A DNA stretch of 29,513 bases, taken from the NCBI GenBank assembly GCA_043816785.1, contig JBDRHP010000080.1, positions 1 to 29,513 on the forward strand, given 5' to 3'. This document shows positions 1 through 6,000 of the stretch, piece after piece. Made by a program: the position numbers. Position 1 is the first letter of the stretch. Each line of letters opens with the position of its first letter. This DNA comes from Candidatus Margulisiibacteriota bacterium. GTDB lineage: Bacteria > Margulisbacteria > WOR-1 > O2-12-FULL-45-9.

Positions 1-3000
1 TCCCGATGCCTTCCCAAATGTAGAGCAATGTTTATCCTCGGAACTCCTTGCTCAAAAAGTTCCCAGGCCATGGTTATTAACGTCAAGTTATTCATGTCCA
101 TGATTATACATGGACTGTCGGATTTCTACGGAAACATTGCGCTTGCTTGACAACAACCAGGGTTTAGAGCATAATCCTTTGCCGAATGAGGTGAAACCAG
201 CAATGGAAAAGAAGGAAAAGCTGCTGTCCCAGGAGGAAGAACCTCCGCCCCTGTTCGACGAGAAAGATAACTCCGCGAGTTACGATTGCATCAAAGATTT
301 TATTGGCTTCAAGGATTTTAAAAAGGTCACGGCCCGGTATCCATTTGTCACGACCGCTTATTATCTTTCTCTGGCGCAGAATGCTCCTGATGATCCGATC
401 ATCAAGCAGCTCTGTCCTTCGATCGAAGAATTGAGAAGTTCAGTCGGGGAAACGGAAGATCCTTTGGAAGAAGAAATAGCCTCGCCAGTGCCAGGCTTGG
501 TGCACCGTTATCCGGACCGGGCGCTGATGATCGTGACCAATGTCTGTTTTATGAACTGCCGCCACTGCACCCGCAAACGCCTCTGGAAAAAACACCGGTT
601 CACGCGCACCCTTTCCGAGATCGGCAAAATGATCGACTATATCAAGGATAATAAACAGATCAGGGACGTGATCCTTTCCGGAGGGGATCCCCTGACTTTG
701 CCGCTGGGCGACCTGGAGATCATTCTGGAGCGGCTGCGCCGCATCCGGCATCTGGAGGTTATCCGGATCGGGACGCGCGCGCCTGTAGTCTTTCCGCAAA
801 GGATTACACCCTGGCTAGCCATGATCCTTAAACGCTACCGCCCGCTCTGGCTAAATACCCAGTTCAATCATCCCCACGAGATCACGCCTCAGTCAGCAGC
901 GGCCATCAGCTTGCTGCAGGATTCCGGGGTAGTGGTCAATAACCAGTCTGTGCTGCTTAAGGGTGTCAATGATAATGCTCAGACCATGACCAGGTTATGC
1001 CACGGGCTGCTCAAGATCGGTGTCAGGCCCTATTATCTCTTTCACTGCGATCCGGTGGAGGGGGTAGGCCACTTCCGCACGCCGATCAGCAAAGGCCTTG
1101 AGATCATTGAGCAGCTGCGCGGCCATACCTCGGGCCTGGCTGTGCCGACTTTTGTGGTGGACGCGGTCAGGGGCGGCGGCAAGATACCGCTGCAGCCGGA
1201 TTATCTTGTGAGCAAAAATAACGGGGTCGTCATCCTGCGCAACTACAAGCAGGAATGCTTTGTTTACAGTGATGAGCCGGAAGTGAAATTAAGTGAAAAT
1301 CGGCATAACCTATAACCTCAAGTCCGAAGTTGAACAGCTCGAGCCTTCACAGCCTCGGGTGGAAGACATGTTCGAAGAATTCGATTCGCCGGAAACCATT
1401 GATGCGCTCTGCGGCGCGATCGAAAAAATGGGACATGAGTGCGTCCGCCTGGGATTCGGCAGGCCAGCGATTGAAAAGATCTTGAATAGCCAGATCGATT
1501 TTGTTTTTAATATCGCGGAGGGCTGCCAGGGCTGCTCGCGCGAAGCCCATATTCCAGCGCTGCTGGAAATGCTTGATATCCGCTACAGCGGGCCGGGGCC
1601 GCTGGCTGCCGGGTTAAGCCTGGATAAGATCTCGGCTAAAAAGATCGCAGCCGGCTCAGGGGCAGCCACGCCAGAATATTTCGCGATCTTCCCGGGCCAA
1701 GAATTTAAGACCGAGAATATCCGATATCCGCTGATCCTTAAGCCGGCTTATGAGGGGTCAAGCATTGGCATCAGGCAGGATTCTAAGGTTGAAAATGATG
1801 ACGCCTTCAGAAACAAACTGAACTGGCTCCGAGCCAATTATCCCCTTCAGCCGGTCATGGCTGAGAGATTTATTGGCGGCAGGGAATTTACCGTTGCCGT
1901 GATCGGCAACACTGATCCAGAAATATTGGGGATCATGGAGGTCATGCCCCAGGACGGCGACTTAAAGAATTTTATCTATTCCCTGGAAGTGAAACGGGAT
2001 TATTTACAAAAGGTCCGCTACAGCTGCCCGCCCAAGGTCAATAAACTACTCCGGGAACAGCTGGGGCGGGCGGCACTGCATTTGTTCCGGGCCTTTAACT
2101 GCCGGGATGTCAGTCGCTTTGATTTTAGGACCGATGAACATGAAACACCCTACTTTCTTGAGGTAAACACTTTGCCTGGCTTGCATCCGGTTTCCAGCGA
2201 TATTGTGATCATGGCCCGGCTCAAAGGAATGGAATATGACCAGCTGATCGAACGCATTTTCAAACACGCGCTGGAAAGGTATAATTAAGCTATGGCTGTT
2301 TATGACCTGGCCTTTGTTTTTGTTGGCGATAAAAGCGAGTCGTTGATCAAGTGGCTGCGCCAGGAATGCTCCTTTCGCAAACTTAAATTCCTCTGGATCA
2401 ATGAGCCTAACGCGCCGGAAATGCTGCAAAAGATCCTGTCGCGCAAAATAAAGATCAATTTTCTGGTCGATAATGAGTCCAATTACTATAACCCCGATGA
2501 TATTTACACGAAGATTTGCTATGCGGCCAAGGACCAGGGCGGCCGGGTAGTGGACGATCCGGACGATGCCCGCACTTACGCTGATAAATCTGTCACGCAT
2601 TTTGATTTTGTTGAAGCGGGTCTGCCGGTCCCTTACACTGTGGTGGTGCGCAACTGGCAGCCGGATGATTTTTCTTTGAGCAGTGGCCAGCTAAAAAGAT
2701 TGGGCAAGCCTTTTATTATCAAGCCGGCGCGCGGCTTTGGCCAGCACGGCGTGGTCAAAGACGCATCCGGCGATATTACCCAGATCGCCGAGGCCAGGCA
2801 TTTCAGCCGCGGCGATAATTTCCTGCTGCAGGAAAAGATCGTGCCGCTGGTGCTGGGAGATGTTCCCGCCTGGTTCAGGGTATATTATCTTTTTGGCGAG
2901 ATCATTCCCTGTTTCTGGCATCCGGAAACAGGGCATTACCGCCACGTTACCCTGCGCGAGATGAATAAATACCGGCTGCTGCCGCTGGCCCGCTATGTTT

Positions 3001-6000
3001 CAGAGATCGCCAGGATCGTTAAAATGAAATTCTTCAGCACGGAGATCGCGGTCAGCGGCCAGGGCAAGGAGCGCAGGTTCGTGATAATAGATTATGTTAA
3101 TGATCAGGTCGAGCTATGCGTGCGGCCAACCAAGATTGCCGGTCCGGTGCCCGAAGTCGTGCATCACGTTACGGAAACTTTGGCCGAGCAGGCCTGGATG
3201 CACAAAGTCGGCAAAAAGCCGATCATTCACCGCGCGCTCTGGCTGGCCAAAGCCCAAACTGAGGACGAATCAATTTGAGACTTTCTGAGTATTTTTTAAC
3301 CAAGCCCGATAGGCTGAAACGCGGGGATACTGTTGGTATTGTGGCGCCGGCCTGGTCTTTTGATCCGGCAAAATTCAAAAAAGGCGTTGCTCAGCTAAAG
3401 CGCTTTGGTTTCAAGGTTAAATTTGACCAGGCGATCTTTAAGCGCTATTGGTCAATGGCCGGCCACGATGACGCCCGGGCTGAGCAGATCAACCAGATGT
3501 TCGCGGACAAAGAGGTCAAAGCGATCTTCTGCGCCAAAGCCGGCTATGGCTCGATCCGCACTATTCCTTATCTTGACAAGAAGGTTATCAAAAATAATCC
3601 CAAGATCTTTGTGGGGTATAGTGACGTTACGATCCTGCTGGAATATTTGCAGCGTATAGCCAACATGGTTGTTTTCCACGGGCCGGTGGTTTCCGGCGAG
3701 GTTCATAAGAACATGAGCTCGATCACCACGGCATATTTGCTGCGGGCCTTGATGCAGGCTGAGCCGGTCGGGGAGATGGCTTTCCCCAGCTTAAAAACCC
3801 TGCGCCGCGGCAAAGCCACTGGCATACTGATTGGCGGCAACATGTCCATGCTGGTCAGCGGCATTGGCACACCGTATGATATTGATACTGATTATAAGAT
3901 CTTGTTTTTGGAGGATATTGGCGAAGACCTGGAGGTCGTTGATAATATTTTGCTGCACCTAAAGCTGGCAGGGAAATTAAAAAGGGTCAGGGGACTGATC
4001 TTTGGCCGGATGGTGGATTGCCATGATCTTTCCGGAAAAAGACACAAGATCAGGGACATTGTTAATGATATTTTAGGCGATCTTGATATTCCGATGGTTT
4101 ATGGTTTTCCCTCGGGCCACGCGCGGGGCCGCGGAGCTAACGTTACCCTGCCGCTGGGCGTATCCGTTACTCTGAACGCTAACCGCCCCAGCCTGGTTTT
4201 TAATGAGGCAGGGGTGAGGTGACGCACCGAGAAATGTCCTTGCAGCTTAAATTCCTCAAGCGTAAAATAAGCACCAGGAGGTAATCACAATGAATAAATT
4301 AATTATTGGTCTGTGCGGTTTGATTTTGTTATCAGGTGTGGCTTTTGCTGGTAATGTTGATTTTTCTGCTAATGCTGGTCTTTATACTGCTCCTGGCGGG
4401 ATAGGGACATCGACCTTGTATGGTGTTTCCGCAACACAAGGGTTGACCGAGAATCTTTCTGTGCGGGCCATGATCCAATCGACAACTTACACGGTAGCTG
4501 GCGCCTCGACGACCTATACCCCCATTTCTGTTGACCTTATTTATGGTCAACGGTTGCCGGGCGGGCTTTATCCTTACGCAGGTCTTGGTCTAAGTTATAA
4601 TAGTACTACTTCCGGCGGGGTAACTGCTCAGACCACCGGAGCTCAAGCAGAGGTCGGGGTCAATTATGCCTTTGGTCCTATTACGGCCGGGGTTGCCTAC
4701 CGTTACATTTTGCCTGATCTCAGCAACACCAGTCTAAACGCTTCGGCTTTTAATGGTTCTGTGACCGGCTCGGTCTTTAAGAGCTTTAGCTTCTAATATG
4801 AATATCCCGATTATCTTAGGCACAGCGCGCGAGGGCAGGCAGTCTGAAAAAGTTGCTAATTTTGTGCTTGAGGTTATCCGGAAATCCGGAGTTGAAACCT
4901 CTATCGTCGATGTCCGCGACTACCGCTTATCAGCTTCAGATAACAGCGGCCAATCTCCACAAGCCAAAAAATTGGCCGCAATAATTAACAAGGCTGATGC
5001 TTTGATCATTGTTTGCCCGGAATATAACCACGGCTATCCAGGCGAGCTTAAGATGATGCTCGATCTGCTTTATGATGAATATTATGATAAACCGGTAGGC
5101 TTATGTGGGGTTTCGCTGGGGCCGTTAGGTGGAGCTAGGGGACTGCAAGCCTTAAAACTTACCCTGGTTTCACTGAGTATGCAAATTATTGTTGAAACTG
5201 TTTATTTTGCTAATCTCAGGACTCTTTTTGACGAACAAGGCAAGATAAAAGATGCTTCCTATGAGAAAAAGGTCAGCGGCCTGCTAATAGGATTGGCCTC
5301 GCGTCTTGAATAAAATGGTGGACCATCTGCCAGAAGCGAGAACCCTGGCGGGAAATAGATCGCGGTAGCGTGAAATTTTTGAAAGTTTTAGTTTCTCTAT
5401 GAGTTTCTGGCAGAGCGAAAAAATAGCCATTGTCAGGAAAAGAGCAGCAAAAACTTGGAGCATAAAAACCAGTAAGCTCCAAGTGTTCAAGAAGTAGTTC
5501 ATGGTGCAATTTTCCCATCAGGGTCTTCTGGTGTCAATGGTTGCCAGCTGCGTGCTTGCTTTTCAATTCATCGAATAGTAAACTTCTTGATATGAAAACA
5601 TGCACGGACTATTTATATTTCACCACCAAAAAGCCAAAAGATGCGCTTGATTTTGGCCCCTGGCAGCAAGTGTTTTACGGGGAGTTCGGCGGGCAGTGAA
5701 AAAAAACGGGTCAGAGTAAAGGTAATGGGGGAATAAGCGTGAAAAAATATATAATAATTTTGATAACGGCCGTGTTGCTGTCATCTGTTTCCTGGTCAAT
5801 GATTGATTCTTATGCTTTTAAAATAATGGGGAAAGTCATTGAAATTTCAGCGGATGCCAAGACCATGAAACTGGATGTATTATCAGTTATTCCTACCAAA
5901 AGTGATTCTGATACCTGGGTGGCGAGGCATTATCTTAAAGGTAAAACTAATATTAATATGGTTTCATACGCTGAAGGAATTGATCCCAAAATGGTCAAAC

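What a model noticed while it worked through the whole genome (the two positions that open the first line are those of the whole stretch)
110..4222. Conserved four-gene cassette: lysine 2,3-aminomutase, two ATP-grasp ligases and an S66 peptidase
g01219-g01222 form a same-strand cassette: a KamA-type lysine 2,3-aminomutase (54% identical to the Clostridium enzyme), a Ddl-like ATP-grasp ligase, a second, Pfam-less ATP-grasp and an S66 LD-carboxypeptidase/MccF-like peptidase. It recurs intact at different chromosomal places in three other Margulisbacteria and is predicted to make a small beta-lysine-containing peptide by a route other than AblA/AblB.
Evidence so far: Table rows; Peptidase_S66 in 1 of 15 family genomes. 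find_related_loci with g01221: 3 loci, all with the same gene order, unrelated flanks, once an MFS transporter. g01221 has 357 homologues, mainly Margulisbacteria and Omnitrophota, some named RimK-type ATP-grasp.
(Added by a program. Inside this text positions count along the whole contig: contig position 1 is position 1 of the stretch shown here. "Call 12" and the like, gene names such as g00115 and contig names such as C1 are that model's own, and its searches are not shown. The text may have been shortened before it was handed on; [...] marks where a part breaks off. The agent that wrote the report below was given it as the finding of a first reader that could run no searches.)

Follow-up and report, generated by a model that had tools for sequence, protein, structure and literature searches.

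The report
Beta-lysine ligase operon, peptidase variant
Four linked genes in an uncultured bacterium probably turn lysine into beta-lysine, join it into a small amide, and add and remove an amino-acid cap on it; they are a new variant of a widespread pathway whose product nobody seems to have identified.

Summary
The cassette is real, but it is two modules. KamA plus the Ddl-like ligase (DdlA) is the core of a widespread operon, usually completed by a second Ddl-like ligase and an acetyltransferase; this scan found that parent on other DNA 104 times. Here an unnamed RimK/LysX-fold ATP-grasp family (AG2) and an S66 peptidase stand in. AG2 tracks DdlA even when unlinked: 81 of 83 AG2 genomes of one Bacteroidota-like class carry DdlA, against 47 of 118 without AG2. 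KamA keeps the lysine-binding residues and probably starts at 203, not 110. DdlA is not the cell-wall ligase. AblB, EpmA and lysine 5,6-aminomutase were not found, and EF-P lacks its lysine. These KamAs carry an early Glu-Glu-Pro-Pro motif conserved at codon level (first Pro CCT in 30 of 38), which suggests a translational sensor. Best reading (about 50%): a cationic beta-lysyl amide, capped by AG2 and uncapped by S66. Product and role are inferred, not shown. Ten full-text searches found no description of the pathway.

The parts
147..175 (+). sigma-70-type promoter-like site TTGACA-17-CATAAT
   Evidence: 11 of 12 consensus matches, best of 14 sites in 1-5800 (shuffles: mean 5.9 sites of 9+ matches); function not shown
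188..193 (+). ribosome-binding-site-like GAGGTG, 9 nt before ATG 203
   Evidence: read from the sequence
203..1315 (+). KamA-type lysine 2,3-aminomutase, 370 aa (longest ORF from 110)
   Evidence: CxxxCxxC and the equivalents of R134, D293, D330 and PLP-lysine K337 of 2a5h are kept (residue roles recalled); member of a 42-row, SH-aLRT 99 clade of DdlA-linked KamAs in a quick tree
233..250 (+). EEEPPP motif, codons 11-16 of KamA (first Pro = CCT, codon 14); candidate translational sensor
   Evidence: the only [ED][EDK]PP[GSP] among 1399 ORFs of the genome; codon conservation across relatives. The window's copy matches the consensus only through the two Pro codons.
1293..2288 (+). DdlA: Ddl-fold ATP-grasp ligase, not the cell-wall enzyme, 331 aa
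   Evidence: catalytic core kept, His63-to-Glu76 and Leu282-to-Asp303 changes, acidic EE[FY]D loop; the canonical ddl lies before ftsQ-ftsZ on contig C52
2257..2285 (+). weaker internal promoter-like site just before the AG2-S66 pair
   Evidence: 10 of 12 matches; could be chance
2292..3278 (+). AG2: unnamed RimK/LysX-fold ATP-grasp ligase family, 328 aa
   Evidence: model pLDDT 88; best matches ArgX Z 21.5 (rmsd 3.0, 265 aligned), RimK 20.9, LysX/ArgX 20.7, tied; 59 of 79 diverse members hit TIGR00768 rimK_fam at E<=0.001, best 8.5e-15; R196, E251, D267 and N270 kept in at least 90% of 79
3275..4222 (+). S66 serine peptidase of a distinct subfamily, 315 aa
   Evidence: S116/E213/H282 invariant in 23 (triad assignment by recalled homology); lacks the roughly 23-residue MccF insertion; below the LdcA cut-off, 136 vs 378 bits

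Best explanation
A small-molecule pathway with a fixed core and an exchangeable cap. Step 1 (well supported by sequence): KamA converts L-lysine to beta-lysine. Step 2 (inferred): DdlA uses ATP to join beta-lysine's carboxyl to a basic amine or basic amino acid, such as lysine, beta-lysine or a diamine, giving a cationic, polyamine-like amide. Step 3 (inferred): AG2, a RimK/LysX-type ligase, adds an L-amino acid, most likely glutamate, to that product and so masks its charge. Step 4 (inferred): the S66 peptidase cuts the cap off again. AG2/S66 thus do here what the second ligase, acetyltransferase and deacetylase do in the parent operon. The likely purpose is a controllable pool of a stress-protective or polyamine-like solute. 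The Glu-Glu-Pro-Pro motif at codon 14 of the first gene probably adjusts output during translation.
For: KamA and DdlA are coupled: KamA lay in all 40 hand-picked DdlA regions, and the two are fused in L094, L095 and L189. R134 and K337 equivalents and both Asp sites are kept across the DdlA-linked KamAs whose motifs could be read. DdlA has extra invariant acids where Ddl binds D-Ala. AG2 is nested in DdlA's distribution: 81 of 83 vs 47 of 118 in the class of G172, where the genes are on different contigs or far apart (e.g. G518, 2.22 vs 1.56 Mb); 11 of 14 vs 86 of 237 in Omnitrophota; 5 of 5, all adjacent, among 146 Margulisbacteria, where the same 5 alone carry this S66 subfamily. 3 of 4 KamA-less cassettes have a KamA-ligase operon elsewhere in the genome. 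The parts were also assembled in other orders: KamA::DdlA-S66-AG2 in L189, and both modules back to back in L190. The other partners of the core are also ligase/transferase plus hydrolase sets: DdlB+GNAT in 19 of 80 loci, 7 of them with a GNAT::deacetylase; a GSP-synthase-like gene + TldD/E in L185-L188; a double ligase + DmpA in L038 and L069. No AblB, EpmA or lysine 5,6-aminomutase was found.
Against: No substrate or product was tested. AG2 replaces the usual ExN metal motif by D-Y-V-N, and its identity to any solved ligase is 17% or less, so glutamate is only a guess from the fold. 47 of 128 DdlA genomes in the class of G172, and 86 of 97 in Omnitrophota, lack AG2, so it is optional. Kin are not independent, so the Fisher values (9e-20, 0.003) overstate. 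S66 was not found in 12 of 22 AG2 genomes searched. 4 of 34 AG2 genomes had no DdlA at E<1e-80. The stress link rests on neighbours (trehalose, glycogen, GH65, MscS genes in 7 of 20 DdlA-linked loci) without a control, and none flank the cassette in this window. No transcript evidence.
Confidence: 0.5

Rival explanations
1. AG2-S66 is an independent module acting on another metabolite (for example a sugar acid or a cofactor) and only shares regulation or lifestyle with KamA-DdlA.
For: 36 of 71 AG2 loci have none of the other genes nearby. Distant AG2 genes sit beside glgC/glgA/alpha-amylase or GH130 pairs. There is a promoter-like site before AG2.
Against: Nested genome-wide profile (81 of 83) and physical joining in at least three different arrangements (window order, L189/L190, L038/L069).
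Confidence: 0.13
2. The cassette makes a toxic beta-lysine peptide, and S66 (or the GNAT in the parent operon) is self-immunity, as MccF and MccE2 are for microcin C.
For: GNAT and S66 are the two immunity devices of the microcin C operon (PMC8323819, passages) and swap places here. Related MFS genes lie near S66/AG2 in L012, L014, L016, L189, L190 and L198.
Against: The S66 lacks the MccF insertion. DdlA is in 128 of 201 and 97 of 251 sampled genomes, which looks like core physiology. No exporter is adjacent in this window; the genome's related MFS is on contig C39.
Confidence: 0.12
3. Carrier or protein-tag model: an acidic tail (a Cys-rich microprotein, or KamA's own EEPP leader) accepts beta-lysine as LysW accepts its cargo, AG2 acts as LysX, and S66 releases the product.
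For: AG2's best fold matches are ArgX/LysX/RimK. The acidic motif is repeated 2-3 times in some KamAs. A Cys-rich acidic micro-ORF precedes KamA in L017, L021, L025 and L027.
Against: The micro-ORF was found in only 4 of the 15 KamA-DdlA-AG2 loci and in none from Margulisbacteria. The motif is constrained at synonymous positions, which a protein substrate does not need. KamAs in the class of G172 lack the leader in 19 of 20 regions.
Confidence: 0.1
4. Peptidoglycan variant: DdlA makes an unusual terminal dipeptide and S66 is the LdcA that recycles it.
For: Closest folds and families are Ddl (Z 31.8) and LdcA/MccF.
Against: A canonical ddl stands before ftsQ-ftsZ; the D-Ala-binding residues are changed; no mur genes were among the recurring neighbours.
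Confidence: 0.07
5. The ligases attach beta-lysine to EF-P in place of EpmA.
For: No EpmA over the cut-off in 5 of 5 genomes checked; the Pro-Pro motif suggests a link to EF-P.
Against: EF-P lacks the PGKG lysine in all four Margulisbacteria with the intact cassette (loops RAAQQ, RSAQQ, MARGG, MGRGG) and in G518 and G585 (PGNWR).
Confidence: 0.03

Closest known systems
AblA/AblB pathway to N-epsilon-acetyl-beta-lysine (PMC1224877, passages read)
   Same: A lysine 2,3-aminomutase supplies beta-lysine, which a neighbouring enzyme modifies; possible stress-solute role.
   Different: No AblB; two ATP-grasp ligases and a peptidase instead; this KamA falls in a separate clade and below the AblA cut-off (428 vs 525 bits).
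KamA-DdlA-DdlB-GNAT operon
   Same: Same KamA clade, same DdlA family, same EEPP motif.
   Different: DdlB and GNAT are absent from this genome (tblastn finds only DdlA itself and canonical Ddl); AG2 and S66 stand in their place.
PylB/PylC of pyrrolysine synthesis (recalled)
   Same: A radical-SAM lysine isomerase paired with an ATP-grasp ligase that makes a basic-basic dipeptide.
   Different: A different mutase family; PylC is only a distant fold match (Z 18.2 for DdlA, 16.1 for AG2); no PylD or pyl tRNA system among the neighbours.
RimK / LysX / ArgX / CofF / MptN alpha-L-glutamate-type ligases
   Same: AG2 has this fold and weak sequence matches to these families.
   Different: Far below their cut-offs; D-Y-V-N in place of E-x-N; no LysW-like carrier in the Margulisbacteria loci.
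LdcA and MccF (S66 peptidases; PMC8323819, passages read)
   Same: Ser-Glu-His triad and both Pfam domains.
   Different: Own subfamily (62-85% mutual identity to the window's protein); no MccF loop; no mcc genes; below the LdcA cut-off.

Membership tests
Lysine 2,3-aminomutase (KamA family) | CxxxCxxC cluster motif, PLP lysine, and Arg/Asp/Asp lysine-binding residues | tested here: met
   Alignment to 2a5h; above the TIGR00238 cut-off, 300 vs 199; residue roles recalled
Lysine 2,3-aminomutase (KamA family) | Converts L-lysine to beta-lysine in vitro; stereochemistry of the product | not testable with these tools
   Needs an anaerobic enzyme assay
AblA/AblB system | AblB acetyltransferase next to, or in the same genome as, ablA | tested here: not met
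   TIGR03827 not found in G000 (87% complete; controls rang); none adjacent in the three intact relatives
AblA/AblB system | TIGR03820 above its curated cut-off | tested here: not met
   428 vs 525 bits
EpmA/EpmB EF-P beta-lysylation | EpmA present and EF-P with the PGKG lysine | tested here: not met
   Only LysRS-sized hits below the TIGR00462 cut-off; EF-P loops without the lysine
Lysine fermentation (kamA-kamDE) | Lysine 5,6-aminomutase in the genome | tested here: not met
   PF09043 found in 0 of 4 cassette genomes and in the positive control G165; genomes 86-94% complete
D-Ala-D-Ala ligase (cell wall) | GGxSxE N-terminal motif, His63, Leu282 pocket, curated cut-off | tested here: not met
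   a separate canonical ddl is on C52
ATP-grasp superfamily (gene 3) | Three-domain ATP-grasp fold with nucleotide- and metal-binding residues | tested here: met
   Z up to 21.5 over 265 residues; K99, K144, Q180, R196, E251, D267, N270 invariant in 42 close members
RimK/LysX family (gene 3) | Curated cut-off of TIGR00768 or TIGR02144 | tested here: not met
   17 vs 143 and 20 vs 276 bits
RimK/LysX family (gene 3) | Adds L-glutamate or aminoadipate to a protein or cofactor carboxyl | not testable with these tools
   Needs an enzyme assay
LysW/AmCP carrier systems | Small zinc-binding carrier with a conserved acidic C-terminus in the cluster | tested here: not met
   None in the window or in L012, L014, L016; a Cys-rich micro-ORF with variable ends in 4 Omnitrophota loci only
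S66 peptidase family | Ser-Glu-His triad and both Pfam domains | tested here: met
MccF (microcin C immunity) | Inserted loop carrying the adenine-stacking Trp (W186 in E. coli MccF) | tested here: not met
   Profile positions 165-166 span residues 166-190 of B. anthracis MccF, so about 23 residues are missing; W186 stacking from PMC8323819; placing the Trp in that insertion is recalled
LdcA (muramoyltetrapeptide carboxypeptidase) | Curated cut-off and activity on tetrapeptide | tested here: inconclusive
   136 vs 378 bits; K-A-G-Y-G in place of the recalled R-G-G-Y-G; activity untested

The most novel reading that the evidence does not exclude
The KamA-DdlA pathway makes a free beta-lysyl, polyamine-like molecule that helps ribosomes through Pro-Pro in bacteria whose EF-P has no lysine to modify. 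The codon-conserved Glu-Glu-Pro(CCU)-Pro motif near codon 14 of the first gene, often followed by a stop in the -1 frame, is a feedback sensor for that molecule, and AG2/S66 store and release it as a glutamyl conjugate.
Probability: 0.1. Interest if true: 0.9.

Novelty: new variant of a known kind. Interest (0 to 1): 0.64.

Why it matters
The KamA-DdlA core is common (DdlA in 128 of 201 and 97 of 251 sampled genomes of two large groups), yet its product seems unknown. This locus ties an unnamed ATP-grasp family and an S66 subfamily to that core and shows interchangeable ligase-plus-hydrolase partners. It gives a compact four-enzyme set that can be expressed and assayed. It would add a third use of beta-lysine beside acetyl-beta-lysine and EF-P modification. 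The codon-level Pro-Pro motif offers a testable translational control inside a coding sequence.

Tried and rejected
Complex prediction of DdlA with KamA: no verdict, score 0.00, controls not folded. RNA evidence: one metatranscriptome held 9% of the words and gave only short scattered contigs; nothing follows from it. Rfam: no riboswitch or leader in the window or 8 related loci. Anti-Shine-Dalgarno pairing of the CCUCC motif with the gene's own ribosome site: seen in 3 of 43 folds, so not general. An upstream ORF in the -1 frame ending at the motif: a start codon in only 5 of 38. A +1 frameshift product: no constant length. 'The motif follows the first gene of the operon': only L192, L193 and L195 among DdlA-first operons; the strict nucleotide pattern in 2 of 54 DdlA genes; a weak lead. 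Polyamine genes did not discriminate: spermidine synthase 0 of 5, AdoMetDC family 5 of 5, including a cassette-free relative. Plasmid search: 4 rhizobial hits at 32% identity; the two opened showed no KamA among annotated genes. The careful KamA tree did not finish; both trees are quick trees without bootstrap. Literature: 10 full-text searches on aminomutase with ATP-grasp, alanine ligase, KamA, Omnitrophota or Margulisbacteria, plus amidoligases, MccF and acetyl-beta-lysine, listed nothing describing this operon; for most hits only titles and abstract starts were seen. PMC12361552 (passages) was irrelevant. A 2009 survey of amidoligase gene neighbourhoods (Iyer et al., recalled) and a review on polyamines in translation were not held; the first could already mention the parent operon. 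No supplements were read.
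Full report
Observation. The window is contig C80 of a 1.53-Mb, 87% complete genome; its closest relatives are labelled Margulisiibacteriota. Four same-strand ORFs fill 110-4222 with overlaps of 23 and 4 nt and one 3-nt gap. The cassette has 52% GC against 46.9% for the genome, and third-position GC of 0.60-0.66 against a median of 0.52 (95th percentile 0.61), which fits acquisition from elsewhere or strong codon bias. KamA most likely starts at 203: the best promoter-like site of the region lies at 147-175, inside the longer ORF, and a ribosome site precedes 203. The downstream beta-barrel and FMN-reductase genes were not found at the related loci.

Gene 1. It is 54% identical to the solved lysine 2,3-aminomutase 2a5h (hand count). 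It keeps the cluster motif, the PLP lysine and the Arg134/Asp293/Asp330 equivalents that bind lysine (roles recalled), and lacks the zinc cysteines. It passes TIGR00238 but not the AblA, glutamate, arginine or EpmB models. In a quick tree of 66 KamA cores it lies in a 42-row clade (SH-aLRT 99) in which all members sit directly before a DdlA, apart from the AblB-linked and alanine-dehydrogenase-like-linked KamAs. Known uses of beta-lysine do not fit. AblB was not found. No EpmA passed the cut-off in 5 of 5 genomes. EF-P lacks the PGKG lysine in all four cassette-bearing Margulisbacteria checked. Lysine 5,6-aminomutase was found in 0 of 4, with a positive control.

Gene 2 (DdlA). It has the Ddl fold (Z 31.8, rmsd 2.2 over 294) and the catalytic Lys, Gly-Ser-Ser, Arg, Asp and ExN residues. 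His63 is replaced by Glu76, Leu282 by Asp303, and the N-terminal loop carries an EE[FY]D patch (E. coli numbering and roles recalled). This points to cationic substrates on both sides (inference). The cell-wall ddl is a separate gene before ftsQ-ftsZ. The family is large: 6239 of 8000 scored candidates at E<=1e-30. Among 80 metagenome loci, 19 read KamA-DdlA-DdlB-GNAT, 7 of them followed by a GNAT::deacetylase; 3 have AG2 next. All 40 further DdlA regions that I picked by hand from 225 hits contained a KamA. KamA::DdlA fusions occur in L094, L095 and L189.

Gene 3 (AG2). No Pfam family matches. The model (pLDDT 88) is an ATP-grasp, tied best with ArgX, RimK and LysX/ArgX. A profile finds 371 representatives at E<=0.001. 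59 of 79 diverse members hit the RimK family model weakly. Catalytic positions are kept, with D-Y-V-N for ExN.

Gene 4. An S66 peptidase with an intact triad, forming its own subfamily. It lacks the MccF insertion and scores below the LdcA cut-off. In 146 Margulisbacteria genomes this subfamily and AG2 occur in the same 5 genomes; 2 others have distant S66 genes.

Modularity and dependence. Among 71 AG2 loci only 8 have all four genes, 13 have S66 alone and 36 have none. The AG2 tree has one clade tied to KamA-DdlA and a sister clade tied mainly to S66. Yet of 34 genomes chosen because AG2 was not beside KamA, 28 had a ligase-type KamA and 30 a DdlA at E<1e-80 somewhere (6 of these have the ligase adjacent). 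Controls: in 201 genomes of the class of G172 (a Bacteroidota/Ignavibacteria-like group), 81 of 83 with AG2 have DdlA against 47 of 118 without; two weak AG2 hits at E about 1e-16 were counted as negative. In 251 Omnitrophota genomes the figures are 11 of 14 against 86 of 237. Kinship inflates the statistics, but the nesting appears in three groups and, in the first, without linkage. Other partners of the same core are TldD/TldE with a divergent GSP-synthase-like gene (L184-L188, the divergent gene seen in 4 of the 5; Pfam, atlas lead, PF03738 in 31% of the cluster) and DmpA with a double ligase (L038, L069). Each set pairs an amide-forming or acylating enzyme with a hydrolase. Acetylation, glutathionylation and glutamylation are the known ways of capping polyamines (recalled), which is why I read the core product as polyamine-like.

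The proline motif. [ED][EDK]PP occurs in the N-terminus of 12 of 16 AG2-type and 21 of 25 DdlB-type KamAs, up to three times, and in 0 of 16 KamAs in other settings; the two fusions in that tree have a looser xEPP. The constraint reaches the codons. The first Pro is CCT in 30 of 38 genes, against 26% in the same genes' cores and at most 43% at any of 15 conserved core prolines. A following Ser is AGT in 15 of 19, against 48 of 636. A stop in the -1 frame follows at once in 25 of 53 copies, against 49 of 1386 control positions. The nucleotide pattern is in frame in 36 of 37 cases, and often lies 14-16 codons from the start. The window's copy is EEEPPP with CCT at codon 14, but it lacks the RGT codon and the immediate stop. 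Tests for SD pairing, an upstream ORF and a +1 product failed. Two earlier notes of this scan report proline leader peptides with terminators before the parent operon in Patescibacteria (not checked here). I read the motif as a translational sensor; how it works is unexplained.

Mechanism. Supported by sequence and genomes: four catalytically intact enzymes, a KamA-DdlA core, and AG2 tracking that core. Inferred: beta-lysine, then a beta-lysyl amide, then a reversible amino-acid cap (about 50%). The purpose is less certain. Trehalose, glycogen, GH65/beta-phosphoglucomutase or MscS genes flank 7 of 20 DdlA-linked loci, without a control. Beta-lysine genes are salt-regulated elsewhere (PMC1224877 and PMC9337991, passages). 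Rivals: an independent AG2-S66 module, a toxin with self-immunity, a carrier or tag system, a cell-wall variant, and EF-P modification, in falling order.

Novelty. The enzymes belong to known superfamilies, and pairing a beta-amino-acid source with ATP-grasp ligases is a known kind of chemistry. The system fails the tested features of AblAB, EpmAB, lysine fermentation, Ddl, LysW and MccF. Ten searches of the held library found no description; a relevant 2009 survey could not be read. The scan has noted the parent operon 104 times and this variant once in an Omnitrophota genome. New here are the genome-wide AG2-DdlA dependence, the set of exchangeable partners and the codon-level motif. Verdict: real, a new variant of a known kind, interest 0.64.

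Noticed in passing
window 1-101, minus strand: The start of a divergent ORF cut by the contig end; it resembles a transposase helix-turn-helix by eye, but had no Pfam hit and no second copy in the genome.
   Followed up: partly
L086, L087, L089, L090 and G000:C61:18408-22126: A second, different KamA lies between an unknown 270-aa gene and one or two alanine-dehydrogenase-like genes (plus a LOG-family gene in two) in four relatives; G000 keeps the operon but without the KamA. Possibly an opine-type beta-lysine pathway.
   Followed up: partly
G000:C44:5983-6522 and L244-L251: EF-P loops vary widely and lack the usual lysine in Margulisbacteria (RAAQQ, RSAQQ, RAGQQ, WAQQ, MARGG, MGRGG) and in two genomes of the class of G172 (PGNWR).
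   Followed up: partly
L184-L188: TldD-TldE-KamA-DdlA with a divergent GSP-synthase-like ATP-grasp gene in five Omnitrophota (divergent gene seen in four): another unexplained variant.
   Followed up: partly
L017:8993-9940, L034:630-1544: A 304-315-aa protein with no Pfam or NCBIfam hit is inserted in or before the cassette; it looks kinase-like by eye only.
   Followed up: no
L088 (G008:C101:1-563): A KamA about 60% identical to the window's runs off the contig end next to the GT4/HAD/GH65 genes seen beside the cassette in G006; probably another copy in the same family.
   Followed up: partly
L065, L073-L076, L080, L081, L083-L085: Distant AG2 genes stand directly before a 1160-aa alpha-amylase, usually followed by glgC and glgA; in L055 and L057-L059 they follow tandem GH130 genes.
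   Followed up: no
window 7375-8888 and 9258-9673: An AbiEi/AbiEii type IV toxin-antitoxin pair lies just before the tmRNA gene, a common integration site.
   Followed up: no
window 5739-6695, 15615-17081, 17095-17883, 24083-25282: Long ORFs with no or only weak Pfam hits.
   Followed up: no
L101-L121, L154, L159, L165: A clade in which DdlA is separated from KamA-DdlB by a sigma-54 two-component system; these KamAs carry a different conserved N-terminus and no EEPP motif.
   Followed up: partly
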